From a virus (taxonomy: Duplodnaviria; Caudoviricetes): DNA of 64,000 bases. A program made the translations under genes and the position numbers. Location: positions 19,933-83,932 of IMG/VR virus record IMGVR_UViG_3300028833_000121; one strand, written 5' to 3'. The notes beneath the pieces are model-generated. The model worked only from the letters and a program-made list of their open reading frames with translations. It was not told the DNA's origin and ran no database searches. This document shows, in pieces, positions 1 through 64,000 of the stretch; the first letter of the stretch is position 1, and every line of letters begins with the position of its first letter.

Positions 1-444
1 ATCACTACCAATTACTGTATCAGTCTACTTAGTAAGACTTACTCCAGTTACTACATTACTTAAATCTATCTAAGTATCACCAATTTTCTCCCAAGTTTTA
101 CTACCAGCTTCACCAACAGGTGCATATTCATCATATTTATCCAGCGCGCCACCTGCTTGTGTCGCAGACTTTACTAAATAAAATGCGCCAGCCTGCGCGC
201 TATCTGCTGTTAAAGTACCAGTATAATTTGTGCCATTGTAAGTAACTACAACTCCTGCGGGAATATTGGCTACAACTGGTGCTGCAGAACCATCCCAGGC
301 GATAATATATGCAACACCACCAGCAATAGCCTGACTTAAAGTATCAACAACGTCTCTAATTTCCCTATCAGCAATATAATAAGTATTACCAGAAGGTAAA
401 GTTATTCTATCAATAATAGGTGTATTTACATCGACATATGCCAT
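1..444 (-). CDS. Virion-associated protein, 3' end runs off the window (code 15)
   Basis: The track ORF stops at TAG 70-72. Read as Gln, the frame stays open to base 1 (KIGDT-Q-IDLSNVVTGVSLTK-Q-TDTVIGSD). RBS AAGGAGA upstream. Confidence 0.6.
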
Positions 445-457
445 ATCTTTATCTCCT

Positions 458-817
458 TTAGTTTCTATTAAAAATTAATTCGCCTTCAATAACTTCAGAA
501 TAATCATTTACATTTAATTTATTATTCCAAAAAGTTTTTTCGACAGCAGTAACGTGAGCATTAGCATCATTTATATGTGCTAATAACTCCTATCTTAATT
601 CTTTGTCAACAAATGGAAGATCTTGTACATAAGTTTGCCCGTCTCCAACTTTGATTCCAGGCACCCAAGTAATAACATTATCCCCATTTATTTCTTCTGT
701 TATACTTTTATAATCGGTATAAATTATAATTTCTCCATCTAAAGGAACAAAACCTCTAGCATGGTTCCAATTATCTGTAGTATCTCGTTTTAATTTTATT
801 CTCGCGCTAGTACTCAT
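458..817 (-). CDS. Small protein with an Mtd_N / hyaluronidase-N-like tail adaptor domain
   Basis: IKLKRDTTDNW...VPLDGEIIIYTD...IKVGDG...DLPF motif. Reads through TAG 590-592 to TAA 458-460. Confidence 0.65.
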
Positions 818-819
818 AT

Positions 820-1149
820 TTATTCTCTCCATAGAACTGTAGTACTAGTACCACAATCAACTATTAAATTTTCAAATTTCTAATCTACGTATTCTTTTTT
901 CGCATAATCCGCGCCATCAGCTAAATCTTCTACTTCTACTGTAGATAAAAGTTCCATTAACTAATCTACTGTAATTCCAATATATTCTAATTCTAACCAA
1001 GGCGTTTCTCCATTACCTATCTTTAACCCATAAACATCATAGGCAAATCCTGGTTCTCCTAAAGCTAAAACTGGGTTTTTTGTATTCCATTCAGCTTCAG
1101 TTGCGCGGCGCAGTTTGAATATAGTCTTCAAGATCTTTTTCGTAACCAT
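820..1149 (-). CDS. Small protein with an Mtd_N domain
   Basis: FKLRRATEAEWNTKNPVLALGEPGFAYDVYGLKIGNGETPWLEL is the typical Mtd_N motif. Two in-frame TAGs; ends LIVDCGTSTTVLWRE-TAA. Confidence 0.7.
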
Positions 1150-1303
1150 CGACATCACCGCCATCAAAAATAATTATTAAATCTAGATCTAAGTTGATAC
1201 TACTATCAACTTTATTAAACTATCCTCTAAAATTTACCTAAGAATTACCAGAATTAAAACTAGACTTAAAGTAACTTTCATTATTTTTCATTCTGCCAAT
1301 CAT
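1097..1303 (-). CDS. Hypothetical 68-aa protein with IIFDGGDVDG motif
   Basis: ATG overlaps the upstream TAA; two in-frame TAGs; ends in TGA. Confidence 0.5.
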
Positions 1304-1635
1304 TAGATTTCACCATCCAATAATACATCACCAAGTCTATCTTTCATTACATCGCTTACTAAACATTCACCATTAGTTAATCTAACTCTTATCTATATCA
1401 AGATAAGTGAATCACGCTGTCTATCTAACCAGCTATATTTATCAAAAGATAAAGTATCCGCCTGCGTAAGCTATAATGAAATAGTTTCTTCATCTGGCTA
1501 AAAAGTTATATCTGTTAATTCTTTTGTAAATTTAACCTTTCCTTTCTAAAAATAAGTAATCTTTAAGACGCTTACTTCATTTTGTTTAAAAGGAAAATAA
1601 AATATATGTTTTGGGGTAGTGCCTCTATAAGTCAT
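1303..1635 (-). CDS. Phage structural protein of the 'MxRGTTPTHxF' type (baseplate/BppU-N-like)
   Basis: MTYRGTTPKHIFYFPF...ITYF(TAG)KGK...I(TAG)IRVRLTNGECLVSDVM. Four TAGs fall where Gln fits; RBS GGAGG. Confidence 0.6.
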
Positions 1636-1663
1636 ACCTATACTAACCCTCCATATCTATAAT

Positions 1664-1680
1664 ACTCTATAAATTAAGTA
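1664..1680 (-). promoter_or_regulatory. Candidate late-promoter motif TACTTAATTTATAGAGT
   Basis: Non-coding, 29 nt upstream of ATG 1635. 16/17 identical to 50851-50867, upstream of the Dit gene. Confidence 0.35.
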
Positions 1681-1725
1681 AAATAAAATTAGGTAAGCTC
1701 TACTTTTCTCAGACCGTTTTAAAAT

Positions 1726-1754
1726 TTGAAAAGTAATGAAAATTATGGTATAAT
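1726..1754 (+). promoter_or_regulatory. SigmaA/sigma70-type promoter
   Basis: TTGAAA-17 nt-TATAAT with an extended -10 TG, upstream of the ligase gene. Confidence 0.8.
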
Positions 1755-1833: not shown

Positions 1834-2925
1834 ATGTATAACTTCCATAATCTAGAACCACAGAAATATTGGACTTTTGGAGCAAGCGCAAAAGTAGACC
1901 CAAGAGTTGAAGCAAAAAATATGATTTTTAGCGGAAATTATATAGGTTCACGAAAAATAGACGGCGCATTTTATAAGTTTTGGAAAGATGAAAATGGTAA
2001 CATGGAACTTTTAGGACGTTCCAAAGGAGTAAATGGAGATTATCTTAATAAAATAGATTGGGTTCCACAATTAAATTCTTTCTTTGAAGTACTTCCTAAT
2101 GGAACCTGTTTAATTGGAGAAATTTACTTTCCTAATAATGAGGGCTCTAATCATGTGACTTCAATCATGGGGTGTTTAAAAGATAAGGCTATCGCGCGTC
2201 AAATGTCTGGAGATAAACTTCATTATTATATTTTTGATGTACTTGCATACGACGGTGAATCTCTTTTAGATAAAGTTATTGAAACTCGTATTCAATTTCT
2301 TCAAATGATTATGCAAACTACTTATAAAACTCATAATACCTATATTGATTTCGCTCACTATTATGAAGGAGAAGAATTATGGAATATGCTCCAAACTATT
2401 CTCGCAGATAATGGTGAAGGTATTGTAATTACAAAAAAAGGAACTTGCTACCAACCAGGTAAACGTCCAGCTCGTCAGACTCTTAAAGTTAAAAGAGAAC
2501 TCCAAGAAAGCTTAGATTGTTTCTTTACAGGGCGCGCGACTCCTCCAACTAGAATATATAGTGGTATTAGCTTGCCTAGCTGGGAGTACTGGGAAGACCC
2601 AGTAACTAAAGAGAAGCTTAAAGGTAATCATTATAGAGAATATATGAATGGCGCGCCTATTGAACCAGTTACTAAATCTTATTTTAATGGAATGGCCGGA
2701 AGTCTAGAGATAGGAGTTCTTCGAGATGGAAAAGTTTATCCGATTGGGTATCTTAGTGGACTTAGTGATGAAATTAAGAGTAACTATAAGGATTATACTG
2801 GTAAATGTTTGGAAGTAGGAGCTATGCAGTTTACAGAAGATAACGCGCTGCGCCATGCAAAAATGATTAGGCTTCGTCCTGATTTGAATATTGAGGATTG
2901 TACTTGGGAGAAATTAGGTCTGTGA
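1834..2925 (+). CDS. lig: ATP-dependent DNA ligase
   Basis: KxDG motif (RKIDGAF), GEIY, IFDVL, EGIV, LKVKR and a C-terminal OB domain. No in-frame TAG. Confidence 0.9.
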   Translation: MYNFHNLEPQKYWTFGASAKVDPRVEAKNMIFSGNYIGSRKIDGAFYKFWKDENGNMELLGRSKGVNGDYLNKIDWVPQLNSFFEVLPNGTCLIGEIYFPNNEGSNHVTSIMGCLKDKAIARQMSGDKLHYYIFDVLAYDGESLLDKVIETRIQFLQMIMQTTYKTHNTYIDFAHYYEGEELWNMLQTILADNGEGIVITKKGTCYQPGKRPARQTLKVKRELQESLDCFFTGRATPPTRIYSGISLPSWEYWEDPVTKEKLKGNHYREYMNGAPIEPVTKSYFNGMAGSLEIGVLRDGKVYPIGYLSGLSDEIKSNYKDYTGKCLEVGAMQFTEDNALRHAKMIRLRPDLNIEDCTWEKLGL

Positions 2926-3296
2926 GTAGTTATGAAGAATAGGTGGCACTTATATTAAAAAAAGAACGTATTAAATTTTAGCGTGAAAAGACATACTCTG
3001 ATTTAAAACGCGGTAAATATAGATATGATTTTTATTTGCCTACTTTAAATTTTCTTATTGAACTTGATGGATAGTTTCACTGGTATCCAATACGTGGTGA
3101 GTAGGAATTAAAAAATTAGAAAGAACATGATAGACAAAAAAATTCTTACGCACTCGCGCATAATATACCATTATTTAGAATCCCATATTGGGATTTAGAT
3201 GGCGGCGCCATCAAAACTTTTAATGACCTTATTCAAAAGAAATATCATGTAACTAGTAAATGGCATAACGATAGATTAAAAGTCCCAAAAAAATAA
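2922..3296 (+). CDS. Stand-alone DUF559/Vsr-like PD-(D/E)xK endonuclease domain (code 15)
   Basis: GTG start overlaps the lig TGA. YRYDFYLP...LIELDG(TAG)FH...HDRQKNSYALAHNIPLFRIPYW; five TAGs; TAA stop. Confidence 0.75.
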
Positions 3297-6419: not shown

Positions 6420-6443
6420 AGAAGTCAATTAAATTTGACTTCT
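6420..6443 (+). terminator. Intrinsic terminator overlapping the -35 of the gyrB promoter
   Basis: AGAAGTCAA-ttaaat-TTGACTTCT followed by a T run. Confidence 0.65.
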
Positions 6444-6463
6444 TTTTTAATTTATGATATAAT
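6435..6463 (+). promoter_or_regulatory. SigmaA-type promoter of the gyrase operon
   Basis: TTGACT-17-TATAAT with TG extension. Confidence 0.8.
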
Positions 6464-6497
6464 ATTTATAGAAAAAGAAAATAGGAGAGTATACGAT

Positions 6498-8348
6498 TTG
6501 AGTTATACAGTTGATGATATTAAATCTCTTTCTTTTAAAGAAGGAGTGCGCCAACGAATTCAAATGTATTTGGGTTCTAATGATTTAGATGGAACTTATC
6601 AAGCGCTGAAAGAAATAATAAATAATTCTACTGATGAAGCTATTGCTGGGTATGGTAAAAGAATAGAAGTATATGTATCTGAAAAAAATAATAGAGTTGG
6701 AGTAAGAGATTACGGGCGCGGAGTACCATTCGGAATTAGAGAAGATGGAGAAAATGTACTAGTATCCATCTATTCTAAATCACATACTGGTGGTAAATTT
6801 GAAGAGGGCGCATATAAAAATGCCAGTGGTCTGAATGGCATTGGTGCTAAATGCGCGTGTCTTAGTGCGGAATATTTTGAAGTTACTTCATTTAGAAATG
6901 GAAAATTTGCAAAAGCTTTTTTTTCTAAAGGAAATTTAGTTGAGTACGTAGAAGGAATCACTGATGCGGCGGATGGTACATATGTAGTCTTTGTACCCGA
7001 TAAAGAAGTATTTAGTAATGGAGAAATAGGATATAAATACTCTAAAATTTGCGAAGATTTAAAGAATATTTCATATTTATATAATGGAATTACTTTTTAT
7101 ATTAAAAATGATGATACAAACGAAGATAAAGAGTATTGCGCGAAGAACGGAATTAAAGATTTTATAAAAGATAATTTATCTACTCCTTTACATCGTACAA
7201 TTCAATATAATAAAGTTAGCGATGGCGTAGATGAATTAGAGATTGCTTTCCAATGGGGTGCAAAGAAAGAAACCTCTTACGTATTTGTTAACGGCTTGCT
7301 TTGTCCAGAAGGCGGCAGTCCAATAACTGGCGCGAAAACAGCTATCACACGTACATTTAATTCTCTTTCAAAACAAGATTTTGATGGAGATGCGATTAGA
7401 AATAATTTATTCTATGTAATTAATTGCTCTGTCGCGCAACCTTCATTCGCAAATCAAACTAAGTCTAAAATTAATAATACAAATCTTCGTACTCTTGCGT
7501 CAAATGCTTTTAGTGAAGCACTTAAGCAAATGAAAATTAAAGTTCCGCAAGAATTTGATGTAATTGTAGAGTTGCTTAAAAAGGTAGCTCGCGCGGAAGC
7601 CGCGGCGGAGAAGGCGCGTCAGCAAGTTCTTAACGCTTCAAAAGAAATTGAAAAGAATCAAAAGAAAAAGGTTTTTGCATCTGATAAGTTGAAAGATGCG
7701 GAGTTTCTTGGGCAGGACTCAACTCTTCTTATTGTTGAAGGTAACAGTGCTATGGGTGGTATGGCTCAGGCGCGCGATTATAAGAAGTATGGTATCTTAG
7801 CAATTAGAGGTAAAATTATTAATTGCTTATCAAATCCCGAAGAGAAGATTTTTGAGAACGAAGAAATTAAACTTCTTTTGAGCGCGATGAATATCGTACC
7901 AGGAAAATATAATAGTTCAAAACTTCGTTATGGCCGTCTTGCAATTTGTACTGATGCAGATAGCGATGGATACCATATTGGACTTCTAATTATGGCTGCG
8001 CTTACCTATCTTGCGCCGCAGTTTATTAAAGAAGGTCGTTTGTGCTGGTTGCGCTCACCGCTTTATATCGTCAATAACGGTAAGCAAGAAAGTTATTATT
8101 TTGACGATGCAGAGTTTAACGCTGTGCGCGGTAAGATTAAAGGTGAAGTAACGCGCGCGAAAGGTCTTGGTGAATTACCGCCTGAAACTGCGCGAGCATC
8201 TATGTTTACTGAGCAGTATCAGCGCATGGAAGCTATGGAATATAGCGATGAAGCATTAGGTTTACTATATGATTTAATGGGTGAAGATGTAAAGAGTAAA
8301 AAAGATTTTATATTTAATAATATTGATTTTTCGGAGATAACAGAATGA
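6498..8348 (+). CDS. gyrB: Type IIA topoisomerase (gyrase) subunit B
   Basis: GHKL motifs EIINNSTDE, DYGRGVP, GGKF...SGLNGIG; TOPRIM motifs EGNSA, RGKIIN and DADSDG. TTG start after an AGGAG RBS. Confidence 0.93.
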   Translation: MSYTVDDIKSLSFKEGVRQRIQMYLGSNDLDGTYQALKEIINNSTDEAIAGYGKRIEVYVSEKNNRVGVRDYGRGVPFGIREDGENVLVSIYSKSHTGGKFEEGAYKNASGLNGIGAKCACLSAEYFEVTSFRNGKFAKAFFSKGNLVEYVEGITDAADGTYVVFVPDKEVFSNGEIGYKYSKICEDLKNISYLYNGITFYIKNDDTNEDKEYCAKNGIKDFIKDNLSTPLHRTIQYNKVSDGVDELEIAFQWGAKKETSYVFVNGLLCPEGGSPITGAKTAITRTFNSLSKQDFDGDAIRNNLFYVINCSVAQPSFANQTKSKINNTNLRTLASNAFSEALKQMKIKVPQEFDVIVELLKKVARAEAAAEKARQQVLNASKEIEKNQKKKVFASDKLKDAEFLGQDSTLLIVEGNSAMGGMAQARDYKKYGILAIRGKIINCLSNPEEKIFENEEIKLLLSAMNIVPGKYNSSKLRYGRLAICTDADSDGYHIGLLIMAALTYLAPQFIKEGRLCWLRSPLYIVNNGKQESYYFDDAEFNAVRGKIKGEVTRAKGLGELPPETARASMFTEQYQRMEAMEYSDEALGLLYDLMGEDVKSKKDFIFNNIDFSEITE

Positions 8349-9042: not shown

Positions 9043-9485
9043 GTGAAGATATAATTTATTTTTCTTTTAATAATTGGTTTAGCGGTAGAGATTATCCTAT
9101 TGGAAATAAATATGAAGAATTAATAAATTCTCATAAATTTAGTGATAAAAATTGGGTTAAAGAAAATAAACTTGTTGTAGTAGCTGGTAATATTGATATG
9201 TCTGTTAATTGGTGTATCGCTGCGCCGAGAAAATGGGTAGAAGAAAATTTGCCAGAACTTTTAACTGATGAAGAATATAATTATGATATTATTTCTTATT
9301 ATAAAGGTGAGAATACAGTAACTACATATACAAAAAAATATAGTGATTTTGTATACCCTGGGACTCCTTGGGAATGTAAATATGGTATGCCTTTTAAAGA
9401 ATATGATGAAGAAGCAGTAGGTGTATATTACGTAGAAGAGGATGAGTGGGAATGGAATGATGATGAAGAGGATGAAGAAGAATGA
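9039..9485 (+). CDS. Hypothetical protein with an acidic tail
   Basis: 148-aa ORF coupled to gyrA by ATGA. Confidence 0.6.
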   Translation: MSEDIIYFSFNNWFSGRDYPIGNKYEELINSHKFSDKNWVKENKLVVVAGNIDMSVNWCIAAPRKWVEENLPELLTDEEYNYDIISYYKGENTVTTYTKKYSDFVYPGTPWECKYGMPFKEYDEEAVGVYYVEEDEWEWNDDEEDEEE

Positions 9486-11836
9486 GTGAATTAAAACCAG
9501 TAATTGAACAATCTTTCGCGCAATACGCAGGCATGGTAATTCAGTCTCGCGCACTTGTTGACGCGCGCGATGGACTTAAACCTTCTGCGCGTCAAATATT
9601 CTATTCAATGCTTCTTCATAAACTCACCCATAATAATCCATATAAGAAAACTGCTAATGCTGTTGGTATGGCTATGGCAGATTTCTATATTCATGGTGAT
9701 TCAAGCTGTGAAGGAATTATTATGCGCGCCGGTCAGGACTTTGCTATGCGCTATCCGCTAGTTGAAGTAAAAGGTAACGTAGGTTCTCCTATCGAAAGTG
9801 GTAACTGGGCTGCTTCCCGTTATACAGAATCTCGTCTTTCTTCTATTTCTAACCTTCTATTTACTGATATTGATAAAGATACAATAATAGAATGGAGAGA
9901 TAGCTATGATAATACAAAACAGTATCCGGCGGTTCTTCCATCTAAAGGATTCTATAATCTTTGCAATGGAACGCAAGGTATTGGTGTAGGTTTAGCTAGT
10001 TCTATCCCGCAGTTTAATTTAAAGGAACTTAATAATGCGCTTATTAATCTTATTCAAAATCCGGATTGCGATTTTGATGATATTTACTGCGCGCCCGACT
10101 TTGCCACTGGTGCAATTCTACTTAATGCAGATGAAGTAAAAGAAAGCTTACGTGTTGGTAATGGGCCAGCTTGTAAGTTGAGATCTGTAGTTGAATTTGA
10201 TACGGGTGAGCGGTGTCTTGTAGTAAAAGAAATTCCGTATAGCGTTTATACAAATACTATCTGTAAGCAACTTGAAGAACTTGTAGAATCAGAAGAAAAC
10301 CCTGGAATTGAACGGTTTAATGACTTAACTGGTGCGACGCCTTTGATTAAGATTTACCTTACAAAGAAAGCAAATCCAGACAAGGTATTAAAATATTTGT
10401 ATAAAAATACTTCGCTCCAGTATTACTATGGCATTAATCTTACTATGCTTGATGGTGGTAAGTATCCTAAAGTTTTTACATGGCGCGAAGCTCTTCAAGC
10501 GCATATTGATCACGAGAAGGTTGTATATCGTCGTGGTTTTGAATATGATTTAAATAGGATGAAGTTTCGTGTCCATATTATAGACGGACTTCTCATATGT
10601 ATCGCGCGCATTGAAGAGGTTATTCAGACGATTAAATCTTCGAGTTCTACCGCAGAAGCAAGCGCGCGACTTCAAAAAGAATACATTCTTGACGCCGAGC
10701 AAGCTAAGGCAGTACTAGACCTAAAACTTAGCCGATTGGCGCATCTTGAAGTAACTAAGCTGAACGGCGAAAAAAGTGACTTACTTAAAAAAATTGGTGC
10801 AATCGAACAAATTTTAAATGACGAAATCCTATTTAATAACGAGCTTATTAAGGGATGGAAAGAAGTTGCTGCAAAATATGGTGACGCGCGCCGTACACGC
10901 ATATTAAATATTTCAAAAGAAGACGAAGAAGAACCAGCAGAAGTTCGCAATCTAATTCTTAATTTTACGAATAAAGGCGGAATCTATGTAACTGAAAGTT
11001 CTTCTCTTTACACACAACGTCGTGGCGGAGTTGGAAACAAATTTAAAATGGAAAAAGGAGAATATATTGTTGGTACTGAAATTGGAGATAATACCGATAT
11101 AATACTATTCTTCTCTGATAAAGGAAATTTCTTTCAAATTAAAATGAGTGAGTTTCCTGTAAATGAAAAAACTTATATAACTCAATTTATTACTATGACA
11201 GCAACAGAGTCTATCTGTAACGCGGCCGTCTACGCAAAGAACGAGAATAAAAATATTTATTTTATTACAAAGAACGGGCTTCTTAAAAAGACTCTATTAT
11301 CTGAATATTACCTTAAACGTGGAAATAGCGCTCGCGCAATAAATCTTGATAATGATGATGAAATTGTAAGCGTTTTCTTTGGGAACGATGGCCTTGATTG
11401 TGGTATTCTTAGTAGTGATGGAAACTTCATCATGTTTAAAACCGATGACGTTAAACCTATTGGTCGTATCGCACGAGGTATAAAAGCCATTAAACTTAAT
11501 GAAGGAGCTTTCGTACAAGACGCGCGGCCCATTCCAAAAGAAACAAAAGCTATTATATCCGTAACTAAAAATGGCCTTACAAAACAAACAAATATAAATG
11601 AATTTTCATATACTAATAAAAATACAAAAGGTTCTAAAATTCAAGGTTTAACGACTAATGATATGGTAGTTTCTTTTGACGCATTGGGCGCCGAGACTGA
11701 AATTATTGTTACATCTACTACATCACAGATACGAGTTGCAGCCGCAGAAATTCCGATGCTTTCTCGTTCCGCGCAAGGAGTTCACGTAATAAAACTAAAG
11801 CCGGTTGAACGAGTAATTCAGATAGAGAAAATTTAA
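9482..11836 (+). CDS. gyrA: Type IIA topoisomerase (gyrase) subunit A
   Basis: DGLKPSARQI, HGDSS, catalytic AASRYTE, beta-pinwheel repeats and a GyrA-box-like QRRGGVG. No TAG. Confidence 0.93.
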   Translation: MSELKPVIEQSFAQYAGMVIQSRALVDARDGLKPSARQIFYSMLLHKLTHNNPYKKTANAVGMAMADFYIHGDSSCEGIIMRAGQDFAMRYPLVEVKGNVGSPIESGNWAASRYTESRLSSISNLLFTDIDKDTIIEWRDSYDNTKQYPAVLPSKGFYNLCNGTQGIGVGLASSIPQFNLKELNNALINLIQNPDCDFDDIYCAPDFATGAILLNADEVKESLRVGNGPACKLRSVVEFDTGERCLVVKEIPYSVYTNTICKQLEELVESEENPGIERFNDLTGATPLIKIYLTKKANPDKVLKYLYKNTSLQYYYGINLTMLDGGKYPKVFTWREALQAHIDHEKVVYRRGFEYDLNRMKFRVHIIDGLLICIARIEEVIQTIKSSSSTAEASARLQKEYILDAEQAKAVLDLKLSRLAHLEVTKLNGEKSDLLKKIGAIEQILNDEILFNNELIKGWKEVAAKYGDARRTRILNISKEDEEEPAEVRNLILNFTNKGGIYVTESSSLYTQRRGGVGNKFKMEKGEYIVGTEIGDNTDIILFFSDKGNFFQIKMSEFPVNEKTYITQFITMTATESICNAAVYAKNENKNIYFITKNGLLKKTLLSEYYLKRGNSARAINLDNDDEIVSVFFGNDGLDCGILSSDGNFIMFKTDDVKPIGRIARGIKAIKLNEGAFVQDARPIPKETKAIISVTKNGLTKQTNINEFSYTNKNTKGSKIQGLTTNDMVVSFDALGAETEIIVTSTTSQIRVAAAEIPMLSRSAQGVHVIKLKPVERVIQIEKI

Positions 11837-14229: not shown

Positions 14230-14284
14230 AACTTAATATAGATATAACGATAGGGCAGGCTAGGAATGGTCTGCTCTATTAAAT

Positions 14285-14313
14285 TTGACTTTTTTCTAAT
14301 TCTATGGTATAAT
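14285..14313 (+). promoter_or_regulatory. SigmaA-type promoter
   Basis: TTGACT-17-TATAAT with TG extension, preceded by a hairpin at about 14251-14280. Confidence 0.8.
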
Positions 14314-14342
14314 ATATATAGGAACAGAATAGGAGAAAATTT

Positions 14343-30967: not shown

Positions 30968-30973
30968 ATTATT

Positions 30974-33725: not shown

Positions 33726-34436
33726 TTAGATTACAGTGTTACCACAACCGCATCCGCAGTTACCGGTATAACCGTAAGGGTTAATAGAAGCATAAGGGGA
33801 AGTAGTAAGATATGCAGGACGAGAAATAGGCCGTAAGGTATCAATAAGATCAGCGGTCTATTGCTGCTGACTAATCTGGAAGTTAGCCGCCTGGAGAGCA
33901 CGATCGCGCTCTTCAAGTCTGTCACGTAAGTCCTGAATAGTATTTTGAGTAATAAGCGCACGAGTTGCTTCAGCTTCCCCATGAATAGCACTTGTAATTT
34001 CACAAGTATTCTTATAGGCTTCAGCCTTTACGCTATCAATATTGCGCTCAATACCACAATTAGCGATCTACTGAGCATAACGATTCTCAGCAATTTGCTG
34101 ACCAAGTCCGCAGAACCCGTCAAGCATGTCATAACGAATGTCGCCCCAAGAATCAGTAGCAACACGTTCAAAGTTAGAAAGTTCACCCGCAAGTTCACCG
34201 AAATTGCGGAACATATCCTGGCTATTATTAGCCTCGTACAAAGCAGAACGGGTTAAAGAACCCTCAACAGATGGGCTGTTACCACCGTAACCGCCACCCC
34301 AACCACCAAAGATGCCGCCACCGCCAAGCAGTGCAAGCCATACCAGGTAAATAAAGGGGTTATTACACCAATCTGCCATACCATTATTATCTTTAGTCAA
34401 TGCCATTACATCGGCCGCAGAAAGTCCATTATCCAT
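33726..34436 (-). CDS. 236-aa protein: Gly-rich TM segment, coiled coil and Cys/Gly tail
   Basis: MDNGLSAADV...LVWLALLGGGG...IQDLRDRL...RPAYLT...CGCGCG; two TAGs inside Gln runs (YAQ-TAG, QQQ-TAG). Confidence 0.7.
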
Positions 34437-36755: not shown

Positions 36756-36780
36756 TTAGCTAACCTCCAAATAAAAAAAT

Positions 36781-36825
36781 GCGCGAGGTAATTTAATTTT
36801 GACCTCTTAGAATATTACCTCGCGC
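36781..36825 (-). terminator. 12-bp stem with a 21-nt loop after the DUF1617-like gene
   Basis: GCGCGAGGTAAT...ATTACCTCGCGC, followed on the minus strand by a T run. Confidence 0.6.
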
Positions 36826-36832
36826 GAAATAT

Positions 36833-53900: not shown

Positions 53901-56900
53901 GCTTGTATATCTGCCTAAGACGGTTTTGCATCTCCAAAAGTTTCTTTATAAATTTCTGCAATTGCTTTTACATCATTGGCTGCTAATTCTTTGACAATGC
54001 CATAATCATGGTTTGCCATATTCTAGAATTGCATATTAAGATAATCTTCAGTAAAATCGGGTAAATTATTAGCTTTAGTATAGGCATCTGCCCTTTTCTA
54101 CATCAAAGCTCTATATTCTTTACTAGTAAAGCCTTCCGCGCCCATATTAGTCATGACACCAGTTTCTTCATCTAAACTGGCTCCCATGACATTAGTCCAA
54201 AATCTGCCTCCGTTCCATTCTTGAAGAGTTTTTAATATTTCAATTCCTCTCTCCCAACCTTCTAAATCATCAGGAGTAGTAGTAAATATAGCTTTCCAAT
54301 AGTTCTACAATTGAGGATTTCCTAATTCTCTTGAACTTATTAATTCTTCCATCGAATTAATTGCAGATTCAATAAAGTCAAAAGATTCTCCCCAATCTTC
54401 ACCAGGATCAAAATTCTTAATAAAATTCTAAGCCCTACTAACTATATCTGTTAAGCCTTCAAAACTATCTAATACTTTAAGTACATTTTCATTTAAATCA
54501 GTAATCGCTATATTACCTTTACTAAAAGCCTAAAACGCTTTCGCTAAACCATTTGCAGAAATAATATCATTATCAAGTAATACTGCAAGAGATTTACTTT
54601 CTTTTGCTAATTCTTGAATATTATATGGAGTAATCTTCCCGTTCTCTTCAATGAAACTTTCAATCTATTCATTTAAATCTTCAAATTCACTAGTCGTTAA
54701 ATAAAATTGTACTAAATTCTATCTAGAGAAAATACCTTCTTCTTCTCCAGTACTTTTTAAAGAATTAGCTAAATTCTAAACTTCCTTATTAGCGCTATTA
54801 CTTCCATCTTTAATGGCCTAAAAAGTTAAAATAATATTATCTGACAAAGAACCAATAAAACTATCTAATTCTGTACCAATGCCTCCTTCCGAGGACATTG
54901 CATCAATCATCGCGGTTTCTACTTGATTTCTAAAATTATTACCGTAATCAGTTAAAGTTTCACCAATTTTGATAACTTTTTTCTATTGTGCAATTTCTAA
55001 CTTGCTAAAATTTGTTAAAACTTTTGTATCTCTTAAACCAGAAGACATTAAAGATTTAAGAGCATTTTTAGCATATTCTTTTCTAGTCTTCTCAATCTAT
55101 TCAATATAAGTATTTAATATTTTTGCTAATCCAGTAGTATCTTCAGTGCCGAACATTTCCATAAGAGTTTTTACAATATCTTCATTTGTTAAAAGCTCAC
55201 TTAATTCAGCACCAATATTTTTTAAACTACCTTCATAAGTACCAGAAATAACTTGTAATAATTTTAATCCCTAATCTTCTTTACTTACAGCAGAAATTTC
55301 TTCAATTAAATTTGCGTATGTATCCTTTATAACTTCTGCAGAAGCTACTGCCTAGGCTATTTCTTTTTTATCAGTAGTTTCAGCTTCTACTCCATATAAC
55401 TCTCTGTATCTATTTTGAAGCTGTTCTGTAGTTGCATTACCGCTCCACCAATCAATTCTTTTCTAACGACGTAAACTTTTAAAGAAATCATCAGAATTAA
55501 AAGTTTCTGCCATCGCGGAAGCAACCGCGTCAGACATCTCATCAGAAAGATTCTATGTATTTAGCATTCGCGCGAAAGCGGTTTTTGCATAACCTTTTTC
55601 AACGACGCGTTCCTATGCAGCCTAATTCTAATACTAAGTATATCTTGCAACTTCTTCGGCCGTCATATCTCGCCAAGAAGTGAAACCATGCTCATCAATA
55701 CCTTCGTATATACGCTTATTAGCTAAATCTATTCTATCATTTTGATATTTCTTTTCATATACTGCAGCTTGTTTCCCTGCAACCATAGCTTTGGCTAATT
55801 CAGCATTTGCGCTAGCTTTTGCAGCACCTTCAGCAGTGCTCTAAGCTAAGGCACTAATAGAGGCTTCGTCTAAAGTTAAAACTAATTGCCCATTTTCAAA
55901 TGTAGAAGATATGTATTGAGCGTACTTATTACTCTACTATAGCAAATCACTAAGATAATCATTTCTTTCCTAAATAGCTTTATTTCTTTCCTAAACTGTT
56001 TCTGCTTCTTGCACAGCTGTTGTTTTTTCTTGATATTGTTCCTATACTTGCTAAGTTTTCCGTTTCGCTTCTTCTGCAGCCGTAGCAACCTTATCCATCT
56101 ATTCAGAATATTTCTTAGCCTATTTAAGCTATCCTTCTAAAGAAAATTCTGACCAAGCTGCATATGCTGCAACTATCGTTCCAACTGCAACCGCTATTCC
56201 ACCAAGAGTCACTCCTAAAGTAGCCGCACCACTAAGAGTTTCTTTTCCAAAAAGAGCACCGACTTTTGTAGAAATAGCACTACCAAACTTAGTCTTCTAA
56301 AAACTATTACCTAACGCATCAAATAAAGAAGTTCCTACTTTAGTATCTTCCATTAACGACTCAGCATATTCTGGGTCTATATTCCATAATTCCTACGGGA
56401 TATCTTCATATGCCAAACCTTTAATAATATTATGTTTATCTTTAAAATCGGCTATTTTCTTTTTTAAATTTCCGTTAAAAATATCAGATAAAAGACTAGT
56501 TCTAGGTATAATAGTAGTTTTACCCTCTGCTCTTGCCTAAGCTTCAGGAGAACCTGCTACTATATTTCCAGCTAAATCAATACCACTAGTTAATCCACCC
56601 TTAATAATAGTTTGCCCGATTCTTGAACCTTTTAGAATAGTAGTAACTGCTTTGTCAATAAAGCCACCGCCACCGAAACTTCTTTTTAAAGCTCCAAAGG
56701 TCTTAATAGCAACTGCCCATTTTAAGAAAGAACCTGCGCCACTACCAAGCGCGCCAGTAAGTTTATTAACTATCTATAATAATTTTGTAAGTGCATCAAC
56801 AGCACCCTTTAAAACCGCGTTATTCGCAAGACCCATTGCAAACTCATCCCACGCATTCTTTAAACGCGCAAGTTTTGATTGCATAGAATCCTAAGTCTTT

Positions 56901-58711
56901 TCAAATTGCTTCTCTGCAGCACCGTTACTATTATACGCCGCACTAACTAATTCTTGTGTACGCGCATAGTCTGCCATCAAAGCGATGAAACGAGACTGTT
57001 GACGAGAACCTGCGGCCTAAGTAGCGATATATCTCTATTGAATATTAGTAAGTGAATCCCACTTAGAAGCTAATTCAATAAATATATCGTCTAGTCCAAC
57101 TTCACCAAGAAAATATTTATTTAAATCAATTCCGGCAGTACGAAGCGCGGCAGATACTTTATTAACATCAATTACTTGCCCCTCTTCATCCTAACCTTTT
57201 AATTCTTCTTTATCATAAAGTTTCTTAACTTCAGAAAATCTAGCTACAACTGTCTTTAACGCAGTACCGGCAGTTTCGGCAGATTCTCTTGTACTTTCAA
57301 TAATCTATGCTAAAAACGCCGCAGTAGTTTCAAATTCCATATTAGCATTATGTGCCAATGAAGCTACTTTAGTCATAGCAGTAGAAATTTCATCTACATT
57401 AGAAGCAGACATAGCCGCCAACTAAGAATATACATCATCTACTCGTTGCGCCTATGCTGTATTTAATTCCATATTAAAGCCACGCAAAGCGTTAGTCATA
57501 CGGTCAGTAGCATCCGCCGCATCAAGACCAGCGATACGCGCCATCTTCAATGTCTCAGTTGAAAGCGCCGCAGCTTGTTCAGTATTTAAACCCTATTGAT
57601 AGTATAATGTCGCGCTTTCATAAGCTTCTTTAGTTGTAACGCCTAATTGATTCGCGCGTTTTGTATAATCTGGTAGCTATTTCCACATATCTTTAATAGT
57701 GTAATTAGTAACTACCGCAGTTTCGGTCATAGCTTTATCAAGTTCTTTTATTGTACTAAAAGAACTACGAATCGCACGCTTAACTAAATTAATAGCATTT
57801 GCAAGACCAAGAAAATATTGAATACGACTTTTTACTTGATCTAATTCAGAACCAAATTGACCAGCACTTACAGTTAAATCCTTAAGAGGTTTTTCAGTAT
57901 TCTTGGTTTCATTGGTCAATTGACTCATAGTATTAGTACAATTACTTAATTGATTATTAAGTTCTTGCGCGGCCTATGTAGAAAGCTAAAGTCCTTCACC
58001 CTATTTAAAATCTATTTTTTGCTATACATTCTAAGTCTCTTCTTCAGCTTCCTTCATTATATCAATAATAGCCTGATACTAAACGATAATTTCTTTAGCA
58101 GTTTGGCTTCCTTTTCCTTCACCAGAAGCCAATCCAGTATAACTCTTTTTAGCTTTTTCTATTAAATCTATAGCTCTCTAAATATCTTTTACATCTGTGG
58201 CGCCTTTAAAAACATCTAAAGCTTCAGTAATTTTCCCTTTAGACTTTTCAGTCTTAAGTTTACTCATTACCTATTCTATTTTTTTTAACCCATCTGGTTT
58301 AATATTATTTAACTATTTCTATAAATCTGCTATTTCTTTTTTAATGCTTTCTAATTTCTATTTTATACTATCATCTATTTTAATCCAATTATTTAAATCT
58401 ATCTAATCACCAAACTAACTTCTAATTTTTTGTACAATCTAATCATACTTTTCCATTTCAGCAATTACTTTATCAAAAGATTTATTAATTGCTGTAGCAT
58501 CAGCTTTATTCTTTATACCCTAACGACTTTTCGCCTAAAAATCATTTAAAGCTTTATCTAATTCATTAAAAGCATTATTAAAACTACTACGTAAATTATC
58601 TGGTAATTTCAAATTATTTAAAATAGTTTGAATATTTTTAATTTTTGCCTAGGCATCTCCTGCATCAAATAAAGCCTTAATATTTACAGTATAACTTGTA
58701 CTACCTGCCAT
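50909..58711 (-). CDS. Tape measure protein (2600 aa, code 15)
   Basis: TP901-type core (ELDKAMTETAVV...IQ(TAG)RYIAT(TAG)AAGSRQQSRFIALM), long helical body, YASG...GEEGPEL motifs. Frame spot-checked at six positions. Confidence 0.9.
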
Positions 58712-59559: not shown

Positions 59560-59577
59560 ATTTCGCTCCTTAAAAAT

Positions 59578-59609
59578 AAAAGGTGGAAGAATTCCTTCCT
59601 CCACCTTTT
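59578..59609 (-). terminator. Intrinsic terminator after the major tail gene
   Basis: AAAAGGTGGA...TCCACCTTTT. Confidence 0.7.
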
Positions 59610-59627: not shown

Positions 59628-60500
59628 TTACTTTAAGTCATACTGTACGAGCTTCATCATATCGCCATCCTCAGGACGGAGAACAGTGAGGTTCATATTA
59701 AATACAGCAGGATCGCCCTCAGCTTCCAAAGTAATTGTATTCTCAGAGGTCATCTTGGCCTTTGGAATAATGAACTGGAAGAACTGATCGGAACCATCAA
59801 CATCAGAACGAGCATAAGTATCGCCCTGGACATAATAGGTACCGGGGAACGTATCACCAGAAATGACGATTTCAGACTTATCAGCAGAAACAGTATAATC
59901 AATCAAAACTTTCTGACCGCCTTTGCTGGCAATAGCAGTATTAATTGCCTCTAATCCCATAGTAGCAGTATCAGAAGCACTTCCTAATACTGTACCATCT
60001 TCGCCAGTAACTTTCCTTACATTTAAGCCCCTAGTAACTGCCGCGGAGAAAAGAATCATATTCGCTCTCGCCGTAGTAGTTTCCTTCATATCAACCTTAA
60101 CACGCTCAGACGTATGAGTTGTAGAATTATAAAGGTCAACCTGGATATAATCAATGTAGTCTGTAGTGTCATCAATAACACGAGCCATGATTGTACGAGA
60201 AACCGTACCACTAGATTTGGGAGTGGCAACGCCATTACCAAACATGATGGCCATGGACTTAGCAGAGAACAAAGCATCCTCGATAGAAACCGTGATTTCC
60301 TTACCATAGTCCCAAGTAACGAGCTTTGGATTGCCCTTACCACCGCGAGCATCAACAGACTCCGCGGTCTGCTCAATGGTAGAAACCTTTAATGTATCAA
60401 GGTATAAAACGGGATCGCCCTGTGTACCATCAGGCTTAATCTTATAGAAGGTAACGTCCGCAACCTCTTTAATACCATAACGGTCTAAAATACTTGCCAT
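59628..60500 (-). CDS. Major tail (tube) protein
   Basis: YGIKEVADV...DARGGKGNPKLVTWDYGKEI...EDALFS...FIIPKAK...EGDPAVF; biased codon use; no TAG. Confidence 0.75.
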   Translation of the reverse strand: MASILDRYGIKEVADVTFYKIKPDGTQGDPVLYLDTLKVSTIEQTAESVDARGGKGNPKLVTWDYGKEITVSIEDALFSAKSMAIMFGNGVATPKSSGTVSRTIMARVIDDTTDYIDYIQVDLYNSTTHTSERVKVDMKETTTARANMILFSAAVTRGLNVRKVTGEDGTVLGSASDTATMGLEAINTAIASKGGQKVLIDYTVSADKSEIVISGDTFPGTYYVQGDTYARSDVDGSDQFFQFIIPKAKMTSENTITLEAEGDPAVFNMNLTVLRPEDGDMMKLVQYDLK

Positions 60501-61277: not shown

Positions 61278-61761
61278 AAGAAGTCAAGTAGAAATACTGC
61301 TCATATGCGCTAATTTCTTCTGTTAAGAAGTTCAAATCAAAATTTCCGCCCTATAACTTACCTAATCCATTTATGATCTTTCCATTTAAAGATTCCTATA
61401 TCTCTCCTAAAATAGCAAACGGGCGCAACTACACATCTTTAATTATCCACTATGTAAGCGGTACAAACACTTCAATATTAATACTTACATCTTTAAATTC
61501 ACTATTTTCTTCATTTTCACGCCCGCGTGTAAAACGCATAGTAACTATAGAATGAGAAGTTTCTTTTGGACCAACGCGTGGTATTATTTTAATCAATTTT
61601 TCAAAAACTTCATTCTATATCTATTCATCTGTTAAATCCGGTTGACTTAATGGGTCTTTATCAGTATAATATAACAATTTAAGTAAAGTCTAATTCGCTA
61701 AAAGTCTTTTTATTATCTTTTGTGCGTTTTCACCTAAATCTCTACAATTTCTAACTCCCAT
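61270..61761 (-). CDS. Probable tail-completion / terminator protein (163 aa)
   Basis: LLKLLYYTDKDPL...IEVFVP...LRPFAILGEI; several TAGs; position in the neck module. Confidence 0.5.
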
Positions 61762-62486
61762 TAACTCTCACCACCTTTATTTAACCAATAAAAGTCGTCC
61801 GGATTATCTGTTGGATTCTATTCAGGCTTAGGAGAATGATCATATATATAAATTGGGTCTATACTTACATATTCCACTCCAGGAGTAGACTACCGATCAT
61901 AACCAGTAACTCTATAAGCTTCTAATAATTCATCTTCCCCAATTTCAAAATAATCATCTTTCTTTAAATCTTTATTAGTAGGAATAACCATAAAACTAAG
62001 TTTTAAGTTCTCAGAATATATAGTATCCATACGACTACGAGAACGAATTTCATCTTTCAACATATTATCTTCTTGCCCATAAAAATAGGCTAAAGTTGAA
62101 AATTCTTCTCCATCTCTCTACCATGTAATCGTATGAGTCATCTTTAACATAACATAACGATTATATCCACTGGCTTTAATATTTTCAAGCCAATAAACCA
62201 TCCAAGGAATTAATTCTAAATCCTTATTTGGAAGATAAAGAATTGTTCCAGCAGGAATATTTAAACTTACTCTAGTTAATAAATACGCGCGCGTCTCAGT
62301 TTCATCTTGTTTGTATCTTTCTAAGAGGCCAGGGCATTCTTCATTCTCATATGAAAAATCTATTCTGTACACGCTCTTCATTAATAAATGTTCGAACTGA
62401 CGCTCGCGCTAGGTTTGAACTCGGGACTAATAATTAAGTCCATACCTATTTAACCTTTTTAAATATATATCTTCAAAATAACTCAT
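61761..62486 (-). CDS. Probable head-closure / neck protein (241 aa)
   Basis: Single frame with five TAGs; neck-module position. Confidence 0.5.
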
Positions 62487-62747
62487 TTATTTAGAAAGTA
62501 GACCCATACATTCAAATACGGTCTTACGAAAATATTCATAATCTAAATAACGCAAAGAATTAGTTTTATTCATTAATTCAATCCAATTAATAGTGCGCTA
62601 TTCTTCAGAAAAACCGTAAAGTTCAATAATAATAGAATCAAGAAATTTTTCCCAATCTCTACCTTTTTCTTTTTCACAAAGCAAACCATAATACTTATTT
62701 CTTAATTTATTAAAATAAGCTTCATTAAGAATTTCATTAGTATTCAT
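62487..62747 (-). CDS. Hypothetical 86-aa neck-region protein
   Basis: One TAG; coupled to both neighbours. Confidence 0.55.
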
Positions 62748-63175
62748 TACTGTTCTCCTGCAAGAGAGGTAAAATCAAACGGTTTATTATCGTAAGAACG
62801 ATAATAAACTCGTTCTAGCTTAAGAGCATTATATTTTTCCGCTTCAAGCATAGACTAGAATTTTGCTAATAAATTTGCTTGTGAAAAATCTCGTTCTTCA
62901 TAAAGTGGCTTTACGTTTTCCCAAGTAAGAATTGTCCTATTTAACCACTCACATTTCATATAAGTAGCTAAAATCTAAATCTCTGTATTACTTAAATCAT
63001 TCTCAAAACCGAAGTCCCCACGGTCAAGAGAAACTCTAGGAAATTTAAACCAAGGTATCGCCCCTTCTAGCAAAGAGCGTAAATCCTATTTTACTTCTTC
63101 CTCAGTCCAAAAACCCCATTCATCGTCTAATATTTTTGCTAAAAAAGCATCATAAACAGTTTGATAAGAGGTCAT
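62747..63175 (-). CDS. Probable head-tail adaptor (142 aa)
   Basis: MTSYQTVYDAFLAKI...EI(TAG)ILATYMKCEWL; three TAGs; GGAGG RBS. Confidence 0.55.
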
Positions 63176-63189
63176 AAGTTAAACCTCCA

Positions 63190-63687
63190 TTATTTTTTTG
63201 CAGCTTGTGCAGCTTCCTCATCCTTCTGGTTTTCTTCAATTACCTTATAAATATCAATCATCGCGCGATCTTGAATATATTTTTTCTTATTAATATCTGG
63301 CGTGATTTTATTTGCAATTGCATACTGCGCGAGCAATACAATCTAATCATTAGATACCTTATCTAAGCCTTCCTTGAAATCACGGAACGGCATTACAGTA
63401 AGATACCGCTTCATCTGCGCCTCATTAAGAATAATAATATTTACGGGTTCTTCCACATCTTCTGGTTCAAGGCCATATTCTTTCTTAACTTCCATATCTT
63501 CAGTATAAAGAATGCCCTCCTCAAACATATTGCGCGAACCAGTATCATACATCATCGCATCAAAAATATCATGCGGTACACTAAACTTATCTCCCTTCTT
63601 CAGCCATGTATGCGTAAAGTGAATATCAGGTAACGTAATACCGACACGAGCATTAACAGTATTAACAATAACAACTTTTCCTTCCAT
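63190..63687 (-). CDS. Hypothetical protein downstream of the capsid gene (165 aa)
   Basis: The track ORF extends through TAG 63343-63345 to TAA 63190. Confidence 0.6.
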
Positions 63688-63726
63688 AATAGAATTCTCC
63701 TTTTAACTCCTTAGAATTTTAAAATA

Positions 63727-63749
63727 GGGGAGGGGAATTTCCCCTCCCC
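63727..63749 (-). terminator. Intrinsic terminator after the major capsid gene
   Basis: GGGGAGGGGA-att-TCCCCTCCCC, followed by TATTTT on the minus strand. Confidence 0.75.
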
Positions 63750-63767
63750 AATAGATATTAAATTAAA

Positions 63768-64000
63768 TTATATACCATAGGGATTGTCCATAACGGGAGT
63801 CTGGATGGCCTTATTCTGGTAAATACCCCAGTTATTATAACTGAGAATACCGCAGCCCATCTTCTTCCAAACGTGGATTTCCATAGAGTTATCATAATTG
63901 TCGTGGTCCTTAATCTGGGTTTCGCCCTCAAGAACAACCTTTACGACCTTCTCACCACCGGTAGGAAGGACATAAGCAATAGAGGGGTCAATCCAAACCT
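63768..64000 (-). CDS. C-terminus of the probable major capsid protein (partial)
   Basis: VWIDPSIAYVLPTGGEKVVKVVLEGETQI...KMGCGIL...IYQNKAI; biased codon use, terminator, position before the neck genes. Confidence 0.65.
   Translation of the reverse strand, partial: VWIDPSIAYVLPTGGEKVVKVVLEGETQIKDHDNYDNSMEIHVWKKMGCGILSYNNWGIYQNKAIQTPVMDNPYGI

What the first reader, a model, noticed from the sequence alone, without database searches (positions are those of the whole stretch)
1..64000. Strong over-representation of GCGC/CGCG in an AT-rich genome
Seen: about 25 GCGC and 20 CGCG in the 2355-bp gyrA gene, against roughly 2-3 GCGC expected from base composition; 6 GCGC in 57001-57800. They occur on both strands, in different codon phases (GCG-C, CGC-GC, G-CGC) and in non-coding hairpins (36781, 36821). 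Inference: this resembles a highly iterated palindrome like cyanobacterial HIP1. It could arise from methylation-directed repair (a Vsr-like nuclease lies at 2922-3296) or mark binding sites for a phage protein such as gyrase or a packaging factor.
Basis: partly seen in the sequence, partly recalled or inferred. Interest (0 to 1): 0.75.

Follow-up and report, generated by a model that had tools for sequence, protein, structure and literature searches.

The report
Alternating GC runs saturate phage clade
This AT-rich, TAG-recoded phage and its uncultured relatives carry short alternating G/C runs (GCGC, CGCG, up to 8 letters) 5- to 40-fold more often than chance, codon use or the likely host explain, the reverse of the usual phage habit of purging such palindromes, and the cause is still unknown.

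Summary
gyrA holds 25 GCGC and 20 CGCG against 2.7 expected each. The 84-kb genome has GCGC at 5.6x, CGCG at 4.3x and GCGCGC at 37x, while GGCC and CCGG sit near 1.0.

The excess survives shuffles that keep amino acids and codon usage (z about 20). It occurs in all codon phases, in non-coding DNA, and with equal fold in sense and antisense, so it acts on double-stranded DNA.

It is not a discrete HIP1-like word. Run lengths decay smoothly and stop at 8-9 nt, tracts are spaced at random, and 6-mer palindromes around the core are slightly avoided.

All 32 relatives show it. The odds ratio at silent sites is about 6-15 in some lineages and 2-3.7 in others, and the two groups are interleaved on the tree. 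SPbeta, control bacteria and the candidate host family lack it.

No C5 or N4/N6 methyltransferase, Vsr or TGT gene was found. The ORF called "Vsr-like" matches homing-endonuclease families. The deamination products GTGC/GCAC are not depleted.

At silent sites, gains run about 4x faster and losses about 3x slower than baseline. That points to a fixation bias: weak selection for the words, or context-specific biased repair. What reads the words is unknown. This scan noted a similar CGCG excess in another phage genome.

The parts
1..64000 (.). Window-wide excess of alternating G/C runs: 325 GCGC and 255 CGCG. Genome-wide there are 397 tracts of 4 nt or more, on average one per 211 bp.
9482..11836 (+). 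gyrA: 25 GCGC and 20 CGCG. Expected 2.7 each from composition; 17.8 in total from the synonymous shuffle.
6435..8348 (+). gyrB: 38 GCGC/CGCG against 14.4 under the synonymous shuffle.
20355..23975 (+). DnaE-type polymerase, part of an SPbeta-like replication module: 43 against 14.2.
50909..58711 (-). 2600-aa late gene, heavily TAG-recoded: 43 against 15.4.
36779..36832 (.). Intergenic inverted repeat whose arms start and end with GCGCG/CGCGC; looks like a terminator hairpin.
2898..3296 (+). It matches HNH/homing-endonuclease PHROGs, has no Pfam Vsr match and no PDB sequence match.
59628..60500 (-). TAG-free virion structural gene with 43% GC that lacks the signature (3 observed, 3.5 expected).
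33726..34436 (-). Gly-rich gene with 45% GC that lacks the signature (4 observed, 4.0 expected).

Best explanation
A clade-specific, strand-symmetric pressure acts on the double-stranded DNA. It fills silent positions so that they complete short alternating G/C runs: GCG/CGC, then GCGC/CGCG, up to 8 nt. Shown: the effect is real, it does not come from amino acids, codon usage or the candidate host's composition, and it has no discrete longer motif. Inferred: the pressure is a fixation bias of scaled strength about 1.5-2.5. My preferred reading is weak genome-wide selection for (GC)2-4 duplex words as dispersed recognition or anchoring sites for a trans-acting DNA-binding or DNA-processing factor. 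A context-specific biased repair of heteroduplex would give the same footprint. Whatever the factor is, it varies in strength among sublineages. It is weak enough to leave protein sequences unchanged, and a TAG-free, presumably highly expressed virion gene does not show it.
For: Synonymous and codon-order shuffles give z=18-30. At 4-fold sites in the context G-N-GC, C is used 56% of the time against about 12% baseline; in C-N-C, G is used 27-42% against 11%. Two-fold sites show the same effect. Non-palindromic extensions are enriched equally in sense and antisense: GGCGCG 4.9x, CGCGCC 4.7x. Only (GC)n is enriched; (AC)n/(GT)n are 0.4-0.5 and (AT)n about 1. Two-state rates between G000 and G002 at GCGC/CGCG-capable silent sites are gain 0.41 and loss 0.39, against baseline 0.09-0.11 and 1.07-1.25. 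That is gain x4 and loss x1/3, as a fixation bias predicts. All three alternative bases fall in G-N-GC, and T falls least. The number of motif-capable contexts is the same in strong and weak relatives, so proteins are not reshaped. All 32 relatives carry the signature. SPbeta at the same GC content has GCGC 0.52x and CGCG 0.07x. Bacterial loci of 25-36% GC show 0-2.4x, apart from one Patescibacteria locus at 37.5% GC with 2.6x/2.3x. The MAG that a relative's contig was binned into has 0-0.8x off that contig. One hundred genomes of that MAG's family hold 14 GCGCGCGC in about 110 Mb, against 8 in this 84-kb phage.
Against: No reader protein was identified. No gene cleanly tracks signature strength: the best candidate, a 194-aa ORF, has distant homologues in weak genomes. 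Divergence data cannot separate weak selection from a context-dependent mutation or repair bias with both gain and loss effects. Tracts show no preferred spacing or position that would suggest organised binding sites. Several genes lack the signature. The host is not established: there is no CRISPR evidence.
Confidence: 0.4

Rival explanations
1. Neutral, context-dependent mutation bias. The phage's own replication and repair machinery (DnaE-type polymerase, RecJ, UvrD-like helicase) or its dNTP supply (NrdD/G, ThyX-like protein, SHMT) makes substitutions that extend GC alternation more often and destroys them less often. The signature would then have no function.
For: The signature is genome-wide, randomly spaced, confined to silent sites, and graded in run length and among lineages. 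It is absent from a TAG-free, presumably highly expressed gene and from a tail/LRR block, as expected for a weak background pressure.
Against: SPbeta shares the syntenic replication module (yorG to yorL) yet has the opposite bias. Gains rise and losses fall together, and purines as well as T are displaced by C, so several unrelated mutation classes would have to shift at once. General dinucleotide slippage is excluded because (AC)n and (AT)n are not enriched. NrdD is present in strong and in several weak lineages.
Confidence: 0.3
2. HIP-type origin (Elhai's model, PMC4390886). A C5 methyltransferase marks GCGC/CGCG, and a methyl-directed very-short-patch repair converts T:G mismatches to C:G, building up the words. 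Since the phage has no such genes, the enzymes would be the host's.
For: The words are palindromic, dispersed and frame-independent like HIPs. CpG is depleted in A/T contexts and enriched only in G/C contexts.
Against: No PF00145 in 23 phage records across two searches, and no PF01555 or PF03852 in five. GTGC/GCAC are 0.87x under the shuffle and about 1.07x against composition. T is the least depleted alternative at G-N-GC. The candidate host family is poor in GCGC/CGCG. There is no discrete word with biased one-off variants.
Confidence: 0.07
3. Physical role in the DNA. Short GC clamps in an AT-rich, strongly supercoiled genome (the phage has its own gyrase) would limit strand opening, or would serve as preferred gyrase or other topoisomerase sites.
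For: The phage encodes GyrA and GyrB. Alternating GC has the highest stacking stability (established nearest-neighbour values; my own knowledge). Runs stop abruptly at 8-9 nt, as if longer, Z-DNA-prone or slippage-prone runs were avoided.
Against: Stability differences between GCGC and GGCC/CCGG are small, yet the latter are not enriched at all. Weak-signature relatives also carry gyrA. No spacing regularity was seen.
Confidence: 0.08
4. Chi mimicry. The words imitate the Chi site of a Bacillota host's AddAB/RexAB and protect linear phage DNA. Known Bacillota Chi sites all contain GCG: AGCGG, GCGCGTG, GAAGCGG (PMC5959072).
For: The replication module is closest to that of Bacillus phage SPbeta, and a relative's contig was binned into an Erysipelotrichaceae MAG, so a Bacillota host is likely. 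Known Chi words of that phylum share the GCG core.
Against: AGCGG, GCGCGTG and GAAGCGG are not enriched. The enrichment is orientation-free and has no specific flank. The candidate host family is poor in these words, unlike true Chi in its host.
Confidence: 0.04
5. By-product of amino-acid content and codon usage (Ala GCG, Arg CGC).
For: GCG makes up 26% of Ala codons and CGC 17% of Arg codons, high for a genome of 34% GC.
Against: Shuffles that keep amino acids and per-gene codon usage leave a 2.3-fold excess of the tetramers and 5-6-fold of the hexamers (z about 20). Non-coding DNA is enriched about 6x.
Confidence: 0.01

Closest known systems
Highly iterated palindromes of cyanobacteria (HIP1 GCGATCGC and alternate HIPs; Elhai 2015, PMC4390886)
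   Same: A GC-rich palindromic core, dispersed genome-wide in all reading frames and in non-coding DNA, far above composition-based expectation, lineage-specific, with no settled function.
   Different: HIPs are discrete 8-mers with a cognate methyltransferase and a biased pattern of one-off variants. Here the unit is any alternating run of 4-8 nt, the 6-mer palindromes are relatively avoided, no methyltransferase or Vsr is encoded, and the genome is a phage's.
VSP-repair footprint of Dcm/Vsr in E. coli (excess of CCWGG-related words, loss of CTAG-type words; my own knowledge)
   Same: Over-representation of a short palindrome through a biased process that works at the DNA level.
   Different: The expected depletion of T-containing derivatives (GTGC/GCAC) is missing, and no Vsr or Dcm homologue was found.
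Chi and other over-represented identity words (Chi of Bacillota: AGCGG, GCGCGTG, GAAGCGG; PMC5959072)
   Same: Short GCG-containing words at high density that could mark DNA for a processing enzyme.
   Different: Chi is oriented, has a fixed sequence and is enriched in the host genome. Here the words are palindromic or orientation-free, variable in length, and absent from the candidate host.
Restriction-site (palindrome) avoidance in phages
   Same: The same genome shows classic avoidance of GATC (0.25x), TCGA (0.33x) and TCGCGA (27 observed against 93).
   Different: GCGC and CGCG go the opposite way, although they are common restriction sites (HhaI, BstUI, BssHII types).
   Same: The same kind of word written into silent codon positions, clade-wide, with the cause left open.
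   Different: It is a different genome, and I could not test whether the two are related. That note describes a longer CGCG-centred near-palindrome about every 250 bp; here no longer consensus exists.

Membership tests
Highly iterated palindrome (HIP) | One discrete palindromic word of 6-8 nt that far exceeds its near variants | tested here: not met
   Run lengths of 4-8 nt decay smoothly. Palindromic 6-mers are 0.8x of independent-flank expectation (for example TGCGCA 114 observed, 169 expected; GCGCGC 481 observed, 578 expected).
Highly iterated palindrome (HIP) | Dispersed in all reading frames and in non-coding DNA | tested here: met
   All three phases are used; non-coding DNA is about 6x; spacing is near-exponential; positions within genes are uniform.
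Highly iterated palindrome (HIP) | A cognate DNA methyltransferase encoded in the same genome | tested here: not met
   No PF00145 in 23 phage records across two searches (13 of 21 in the larger one at least 90% complete); no PF01555 in 5.
VSP-repair footprint (Dcm/Vsr type) | A Vsr endonuclease is present | tested here: not met
   No PF03852 match in six-frame searches of 5 genomes. ORF 2898-3296 matches homing-endonuclease PHROGs.
VSP-repair footprint (Dcm/Vsr type) | Depletion of the T:G-derived one-mismatch words | tested here: not met
   GTGC and GCAC are 0.87x under the shuffle and 1.06-1.08x against composition. T is the least depleted base at G-N-GC.
Chi-type protective word | An oriented, fixed word that is also over-represented in the host chromosome | tested here: not met
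   Sense and antisense are enriched by the same fold; known Bacillota Chi words are not enriched. The candidate host family is poor in the words, though the host itself is unproven.
Codon-usage or amino-acid artefact | The excess vanishes under shuffles that keep amino acids and codon usage | tested here: not met
   z=21 for GCGC and z=18 for CGCG after the synonymous shuffle.
Site-specific DNA modification motif | A modified base at the word in virion DNA | not testable with these tools
No TGT/DpdA (PF01702) in 5 genomes.
Host-derived genomic signature | The same excess in the host chromosome | tested here: inconclusive
   Absent from the MAG that a relative's contig was binned into and from 100 genomes of its family. 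The host link rests only on binning and on SHMT similarity; no CRISPR spacers were found.

The most novel reading that the evidence does not exclude
The (GC)2-4 words are a self tag. A dedicated phage protein, not yet identified, reads them on double-stranded DNA. That would let the phage's replication, packaging or nuclease machinery tell phage DNA from a host chromosome that carries roughly 700-fold fewer (GC)4 runs per base.
Probability: 0.12. Interest if true: 0.85.

Novelty: new variant of a known kind. Interest (0 to 1): 0.6.

Why it matters
Phages are expected to purge short palindromes because these are restriction sites. This genome does so for GATC and TCGA, yet the same genome and a whole uncultured clade of about 100-145-kb phages load their silent sites with GCGC/CGCG. 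That implies a force acting on phage DNA that is not in the textbook list of codon bias, restriction avoidance and host mimicry.

If it is selection, there is an unknown protein that reads (GC)n on phage DNA. If it is mutation or repair bias, there is a replisome or repair activity with an unusual context rule.

There are practical consequences too. The signature separates phage contigs from host contigs: one relative is mis-binned in a rumen MAG and stands out by this word alone. The trait also changes state several times within one clade, which makes it suitable for comparative mapping of its cause.

Tried and rejected
- **Longer consensus:** 5- to 8-mers and flank profiles show only G/C-favouring flanks. 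ATGGCGCG (25 copies) is just the common sense-strand ATGG joined to the core; it occurs in all phases and is not at gene starts.
- **Spacing, periodicity, position in genes:** nothing found.
- **General dinucleotide slippage, general palindrome creation, generic G+C clustering:** rejected. (AC)n, (AT)n, GGCC, CCGG and GGGG are not enriched.
- **Link to TAG recoding:** no correlation per gene (Spearman n.s.). Standard-code relatives can be strong and recoded ones weak.
- **Early versus late genes:** raw density differs, but the ratio to the shuffle is 2-4x in both.
- **Modification and repair genes:** no PF00145, PF01555, PF01702 or PF03852. Extra genes in the 95%-complete relative G003 include a permease, a kinase/HD protein, an RNA ligase, a phosphoesterase and a weak RlaP-like match (an RNA-repair-like set), plus an F420-ligase-like gene; no methyltransferase turned up.
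- **Gene content versus signature strength:** within +-10 kb of DnaE, NrdD/G looked associated but also occurs in weak lineages. Across 14 whole genomes a 194-aa ORF looked perfect, but a more sensitive search found distant homologues in weak genomes. A GT2 glycosyltransferase is present in 8 of 9 strong genomes but missing from G003.
- **Host by CRISPR:** two 33-nt matches at 94% identity were not in repeat arrays.
- **Close cultured relative by DNA:** none.
- **Immune-evasion idea:** the pattern of neutralising CpG motifs seen in adenoviruses (my own knowledge) resembles this one. I set it aside as implausible for a phage of rumen bacteria.
Full report
**What the window is.** The window is bases 19933-83932 of an 83,932-bp virus record that is about 65% complete. 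Its GC content is 33.6% for the window and 34.7% for the genome. Standard-code ORFs cover 43% of the genome, and reading TAG as a sense codon raises this to 88%, so the phage reads TAG as an amino acid, taken here as Gln. I built a set of 86 non-overlapping genes covering 95% of the genome.

Early genes lie on the + strand: ligase, a homing-endonuclease-like ORF, a GIY-YIG nuclease, UvrD, GyrB, GyrA, an AAA_24/Sak4-like protein, DnaB, primase, RecJ, DnaE, NrdD/G, SHMT, a ThyX-like protein, a dUTPase-domain protein and a RuvC-like protein. Late genes lie on the - strand and include proteins of 1100-2600 aa, Dit and virion proteins. The block from AAA_24 to DnaE has the same gene order as yorG to yorL of Bacillus phage SPbeta, whose DnaE is 37% identical.

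Genome-wide figures:

| Word | Observed/expected |
|---|---|
| GCGC | 5.6x (425 observed, 75 expected) |
| CGCG | 4.3x |
| GCGCG / CGCGC | 13x |
| GCGCGC | 37x |
| CGCGCG | 26x |
| 7-mers | about 65x |
| GGCC | 1.07 |
| CCGG | 1.05 |
| GGGG/CCCC | 0.57 |

So this is not G+C clustering. It is specific to G/C alternation. Among all dinucleotide repeats only (GC)n is enriched; (AC)n/(GT)n are 0.4-0.5 and (AT)n about 1.

**Not amino acids, not codon usage.**
- Shuffling synonymous codons within each gene keeps the protein and the gene's codon usage. It leaves GCGC at 411 against 175+-11 (z=21), CGCG at 311 against 134 (z=18), and the hexamers at 5-6x. Shuffling codon order gives z=22-30.
- All phases are used, and non-coding DNA is enriched about 6x.
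- At 4-fold sites the rule is explicit. In the context G-N-GC, C is chosen 56% of the time against about 12% otherwise. In C-N-C, G is chosen 27-42% against 11%. Two-fold sites behave the same way.
- Non-palindromic extensions are enriched by the same factor in sense and antisense (GGCGCG 4.9x, CGCGCC 4.7x). The target is therefore duplex DNA, not mRNA or translation.

**Anatomy: a graded signature, not an element.**
- There are 397 alternating tracts of 4 nt or more. Their spacing is near-exponential, with no 3-nt periodicity, and positions along genes are uniform.
- Flanks favour only G/C, and no longer consensus exists.
- Run lengths decay by about half per added base from 4 to 8 nt and then stop. 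In three genomes, runs of 8 nt number 10-28, runs of 9 nt number 1-2, and none is longer.
- Six-base palindromes built on the cores are 0.8x of what independent flanks predict. TCGCGA is 27 observed against 93.
- Ordinary palindrome avoidance is thus superimposed on the excess. GATC is 0.25x (z=-12) and TCGA 0.33x.

**Distribution among genes.** Almost every gene of 200 aa or more, early or late, is 2-4x above its own shuffle. There is no correlation with TAG use. The exceptions are:
- a TAG-free virion structural gene with 43% GC (59628-60500);
- a Gly-rich gene (33726-34436);
- a tail/LRR block upstream of the window.

**Distribution among genomes.**
- All 32 IMG/VR relatives found with DnaE carry the excess, at 2-10x.
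- A cleaner measure is the odds ratio for the completing base at GCGC/CGCG-capable 4-fold sites. On whole genomes it is 9.6-10.2 in G000 and its closest kin, 5.6-6.9 in six other lineages, and 2.4-3.3 in five. On the 23-kb loci the ranges are 8-15 for strong and 2.1-3.7 for weak. Bacterial controls and SPbeta give 0.3-2.4.
- Strong and weak lineages are interleaved on a DnaE+RecJ+primase tree, which implies at least four changes of state.
- Both groups include standard-code and TAG-recoded members.
- The number of motif-capable contexts is alike in strong and weak relatives, so the pressure rewrites silent sites, not proteins.

**Host comparison.**
- The best SHMT match among bacterial genomes (81% identity) is a 47-kb contig of a rumen MAG labelled Erysipelotrichaceae. 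That contig is a phage relative with the same signature.
- All seven GCGCGCGC in the 1.8-Mb MAG lie on that one contig. Five other contigs of the MAG have GCGC at 0-0.8x and CGCG at 0-0.3x.
- One hundred further genomes of the MAG's family hold 14 GCGCGCGC in about 110 Mb, against 8 in this 84-kb phage.
- Bacterial loci of 25-36% GC give GCGC 0-2.4x and CGCG 0-1.35x. The highest AT-rich control is a Patescibacteria locus at 37.5% GC with 2.6x/2.3x, still well below the strong phage lineages.
- The host link rests only on binning and gene similarity. A search for spacers found nothing usable.

- No C5 methyltransferase was found in 23 phage records across two searches; 13 of the 21 in the larger search are at least 90% complete. 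No N4/N6 methyltransferase, TGT/DpdA or Vsr was found in five genomes.
- ORF 2898-3296 matches homing-endonuclease PHROGs, as does the C-terminal part of the HNH gene at 19231-20298. It has no Pfam or PDB sequence match.
- The deamination products GTGC/GCAC are 0.87x under the shuffle and about 1.07x against composition.
- At G-N-GC the alternatives change by x0.39 for A, x0.26 for G and x0.64 for T. T is the least depleted, and purines are displaced too. A T:G-to-C:G repair cannot produce this.
- The published HIP model needs a cognate methyltransferase and a biased pattern of one-off variants (PMC4390886). Neither is seen here.

**Direction of the pressure.** I compared codon alignments of 40 orthologue triplets; silent-site divergence between G000 and G002 is 40%. 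A two-state fit at GCGC/CGCG-capable 4-fold sites gives gain 0.41 and loss 0.39. The baseline is 0.11/1.07 for C and 0.09/1.25 for G. Gains are about 4x faster and losses about 3x slower, which is the symmetric pattern a fixation bias produces: weak selection, or biased conversion. A mutation process would need several classes to shift together. This is suggestive, not decisive, because the sites are partly saturated and a suitably parameterised mutation model would also fit.

**Other readings tested.** The known Chi words of Bacillota (AGCGG, GCGCGTG, GAAGCGG; PMC5959072) are not enriched, and the excess has no orientation. Searches for a gene that tracks signature strength found nothing robust.

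**Verdict.** This is a real, strong, clade-specific signature at the level of the DNA itself. It resembles cyanobacterial HIPs in being dispersed and unexplained, but it fails their defining tests.

My ranking:
1. Weak selection for short alternating GC words read by an unknown factor: 0.4.
2. Neutral context-dependent mutation bias: 0.3.
3. Structural or gyrase-related roles, host-methylation-directed repair and Chi mimicry are minor options.
4. Codon usage is excluded.

This scan earlier noted a similar CGCG excess in another AT-rich phage genome (e1-3284105). I could not test whether the two are related.

Noticed in passing
window 1-64000 (whole genome): TAG is read as sense, apparently Gln. 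ORF coverage rises from 43% to 88%. TAG is rare in replication genes and makes up about half of Gln codons in late genes. ARAGORN found no suppressor tRNA in the 84 kb; nine tRNAs lie at genome 150-2010.
   Followed up: partly
window 1-64000: Strong avoidance of GATC (0.25x, z=-12) and TCGA (0.33x). Relatives differ sharply: GATC ranges from 0.01 to 1.4, and GGCC falls to 0.15 in some. This suggests different host restriction systems across the clade.
   Followed up: partly
window 13261-23975: The replication module (AAA_24/Sak4-like, small ORF, DnaB, primase, RecJ, DnaE) has the same gene order as yorG-yorL of Bacillus phage SPbeta. An HNH endonuclease gene (19231-20298) is inserted before DnaE.
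   Followed up: partly
L034 / G001 contig C5 (47 kb): A phage relative (SHMT 81% identical, 87% nt identity over 8 kb) is binned inside a rumen MAG labelled Erysipelotrichaceae (RUG12586). It is the only contig of that MAG that contains GCGCGCGC.
   Followed up: yes
window 59628-60500: This virion structural gene (phrog_2729) has no TAG codons and 43% GC, and it lacks the GC-run signature. Its paralogue next door (58771-59604) uses TAG and has a twofold excess of the words.
   Followed up: partly
L001 10219-18720 (upstream of the window): A block of a BspA-type LRR protein, a 298-aa protein, a GT2 glycosyltransferase and a 1104-aa tail-like protein has GC of 31-45% and almost no GC-run excess, although the genes use TAG codons. 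It may have been exchanged with phages of a different signature.
   Followed up: no
G003 (L118-L119), 82-121 kb of the relative: The 95%-complete relative carries a xanthine/uracil permease, a kinase/HD protein, an RNA ligase, a phosphoesterase and a weak RlaP-like match (an RNA-repair-like set). It also has an F420-0:gamma-glutamyl-ligase-like gene.
   Followed up: no
loci L005-L031 (human-gut subclade), position after DnaE: Where this phage has NrdD/NrdG, 14 relatives carry a different 750-aa gene. I did not annotate it; it may be another class of ribonucleotide reductase.
   Followed up: no
G000, G003, G004: Alternating G/C runs end abruptly at 8-9 nt. In three genomes, 10-28 runs of 8 nt, 1-2 of 9 nt and none longer. 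This suggests selection against longer (GC)n.
   Followed up: partly
window 28201-32225 and L001 9071-9505: A nucleotide-metabolism set (SHMT, a ThyX-like protein below Pfam threshold, a 307-aa dUTPase-domain protein, a T4 gp1-like dNMP kinase) recalls phages with modified pyrimidines. No evidence for or against modification was obtained.
   Followed up: no
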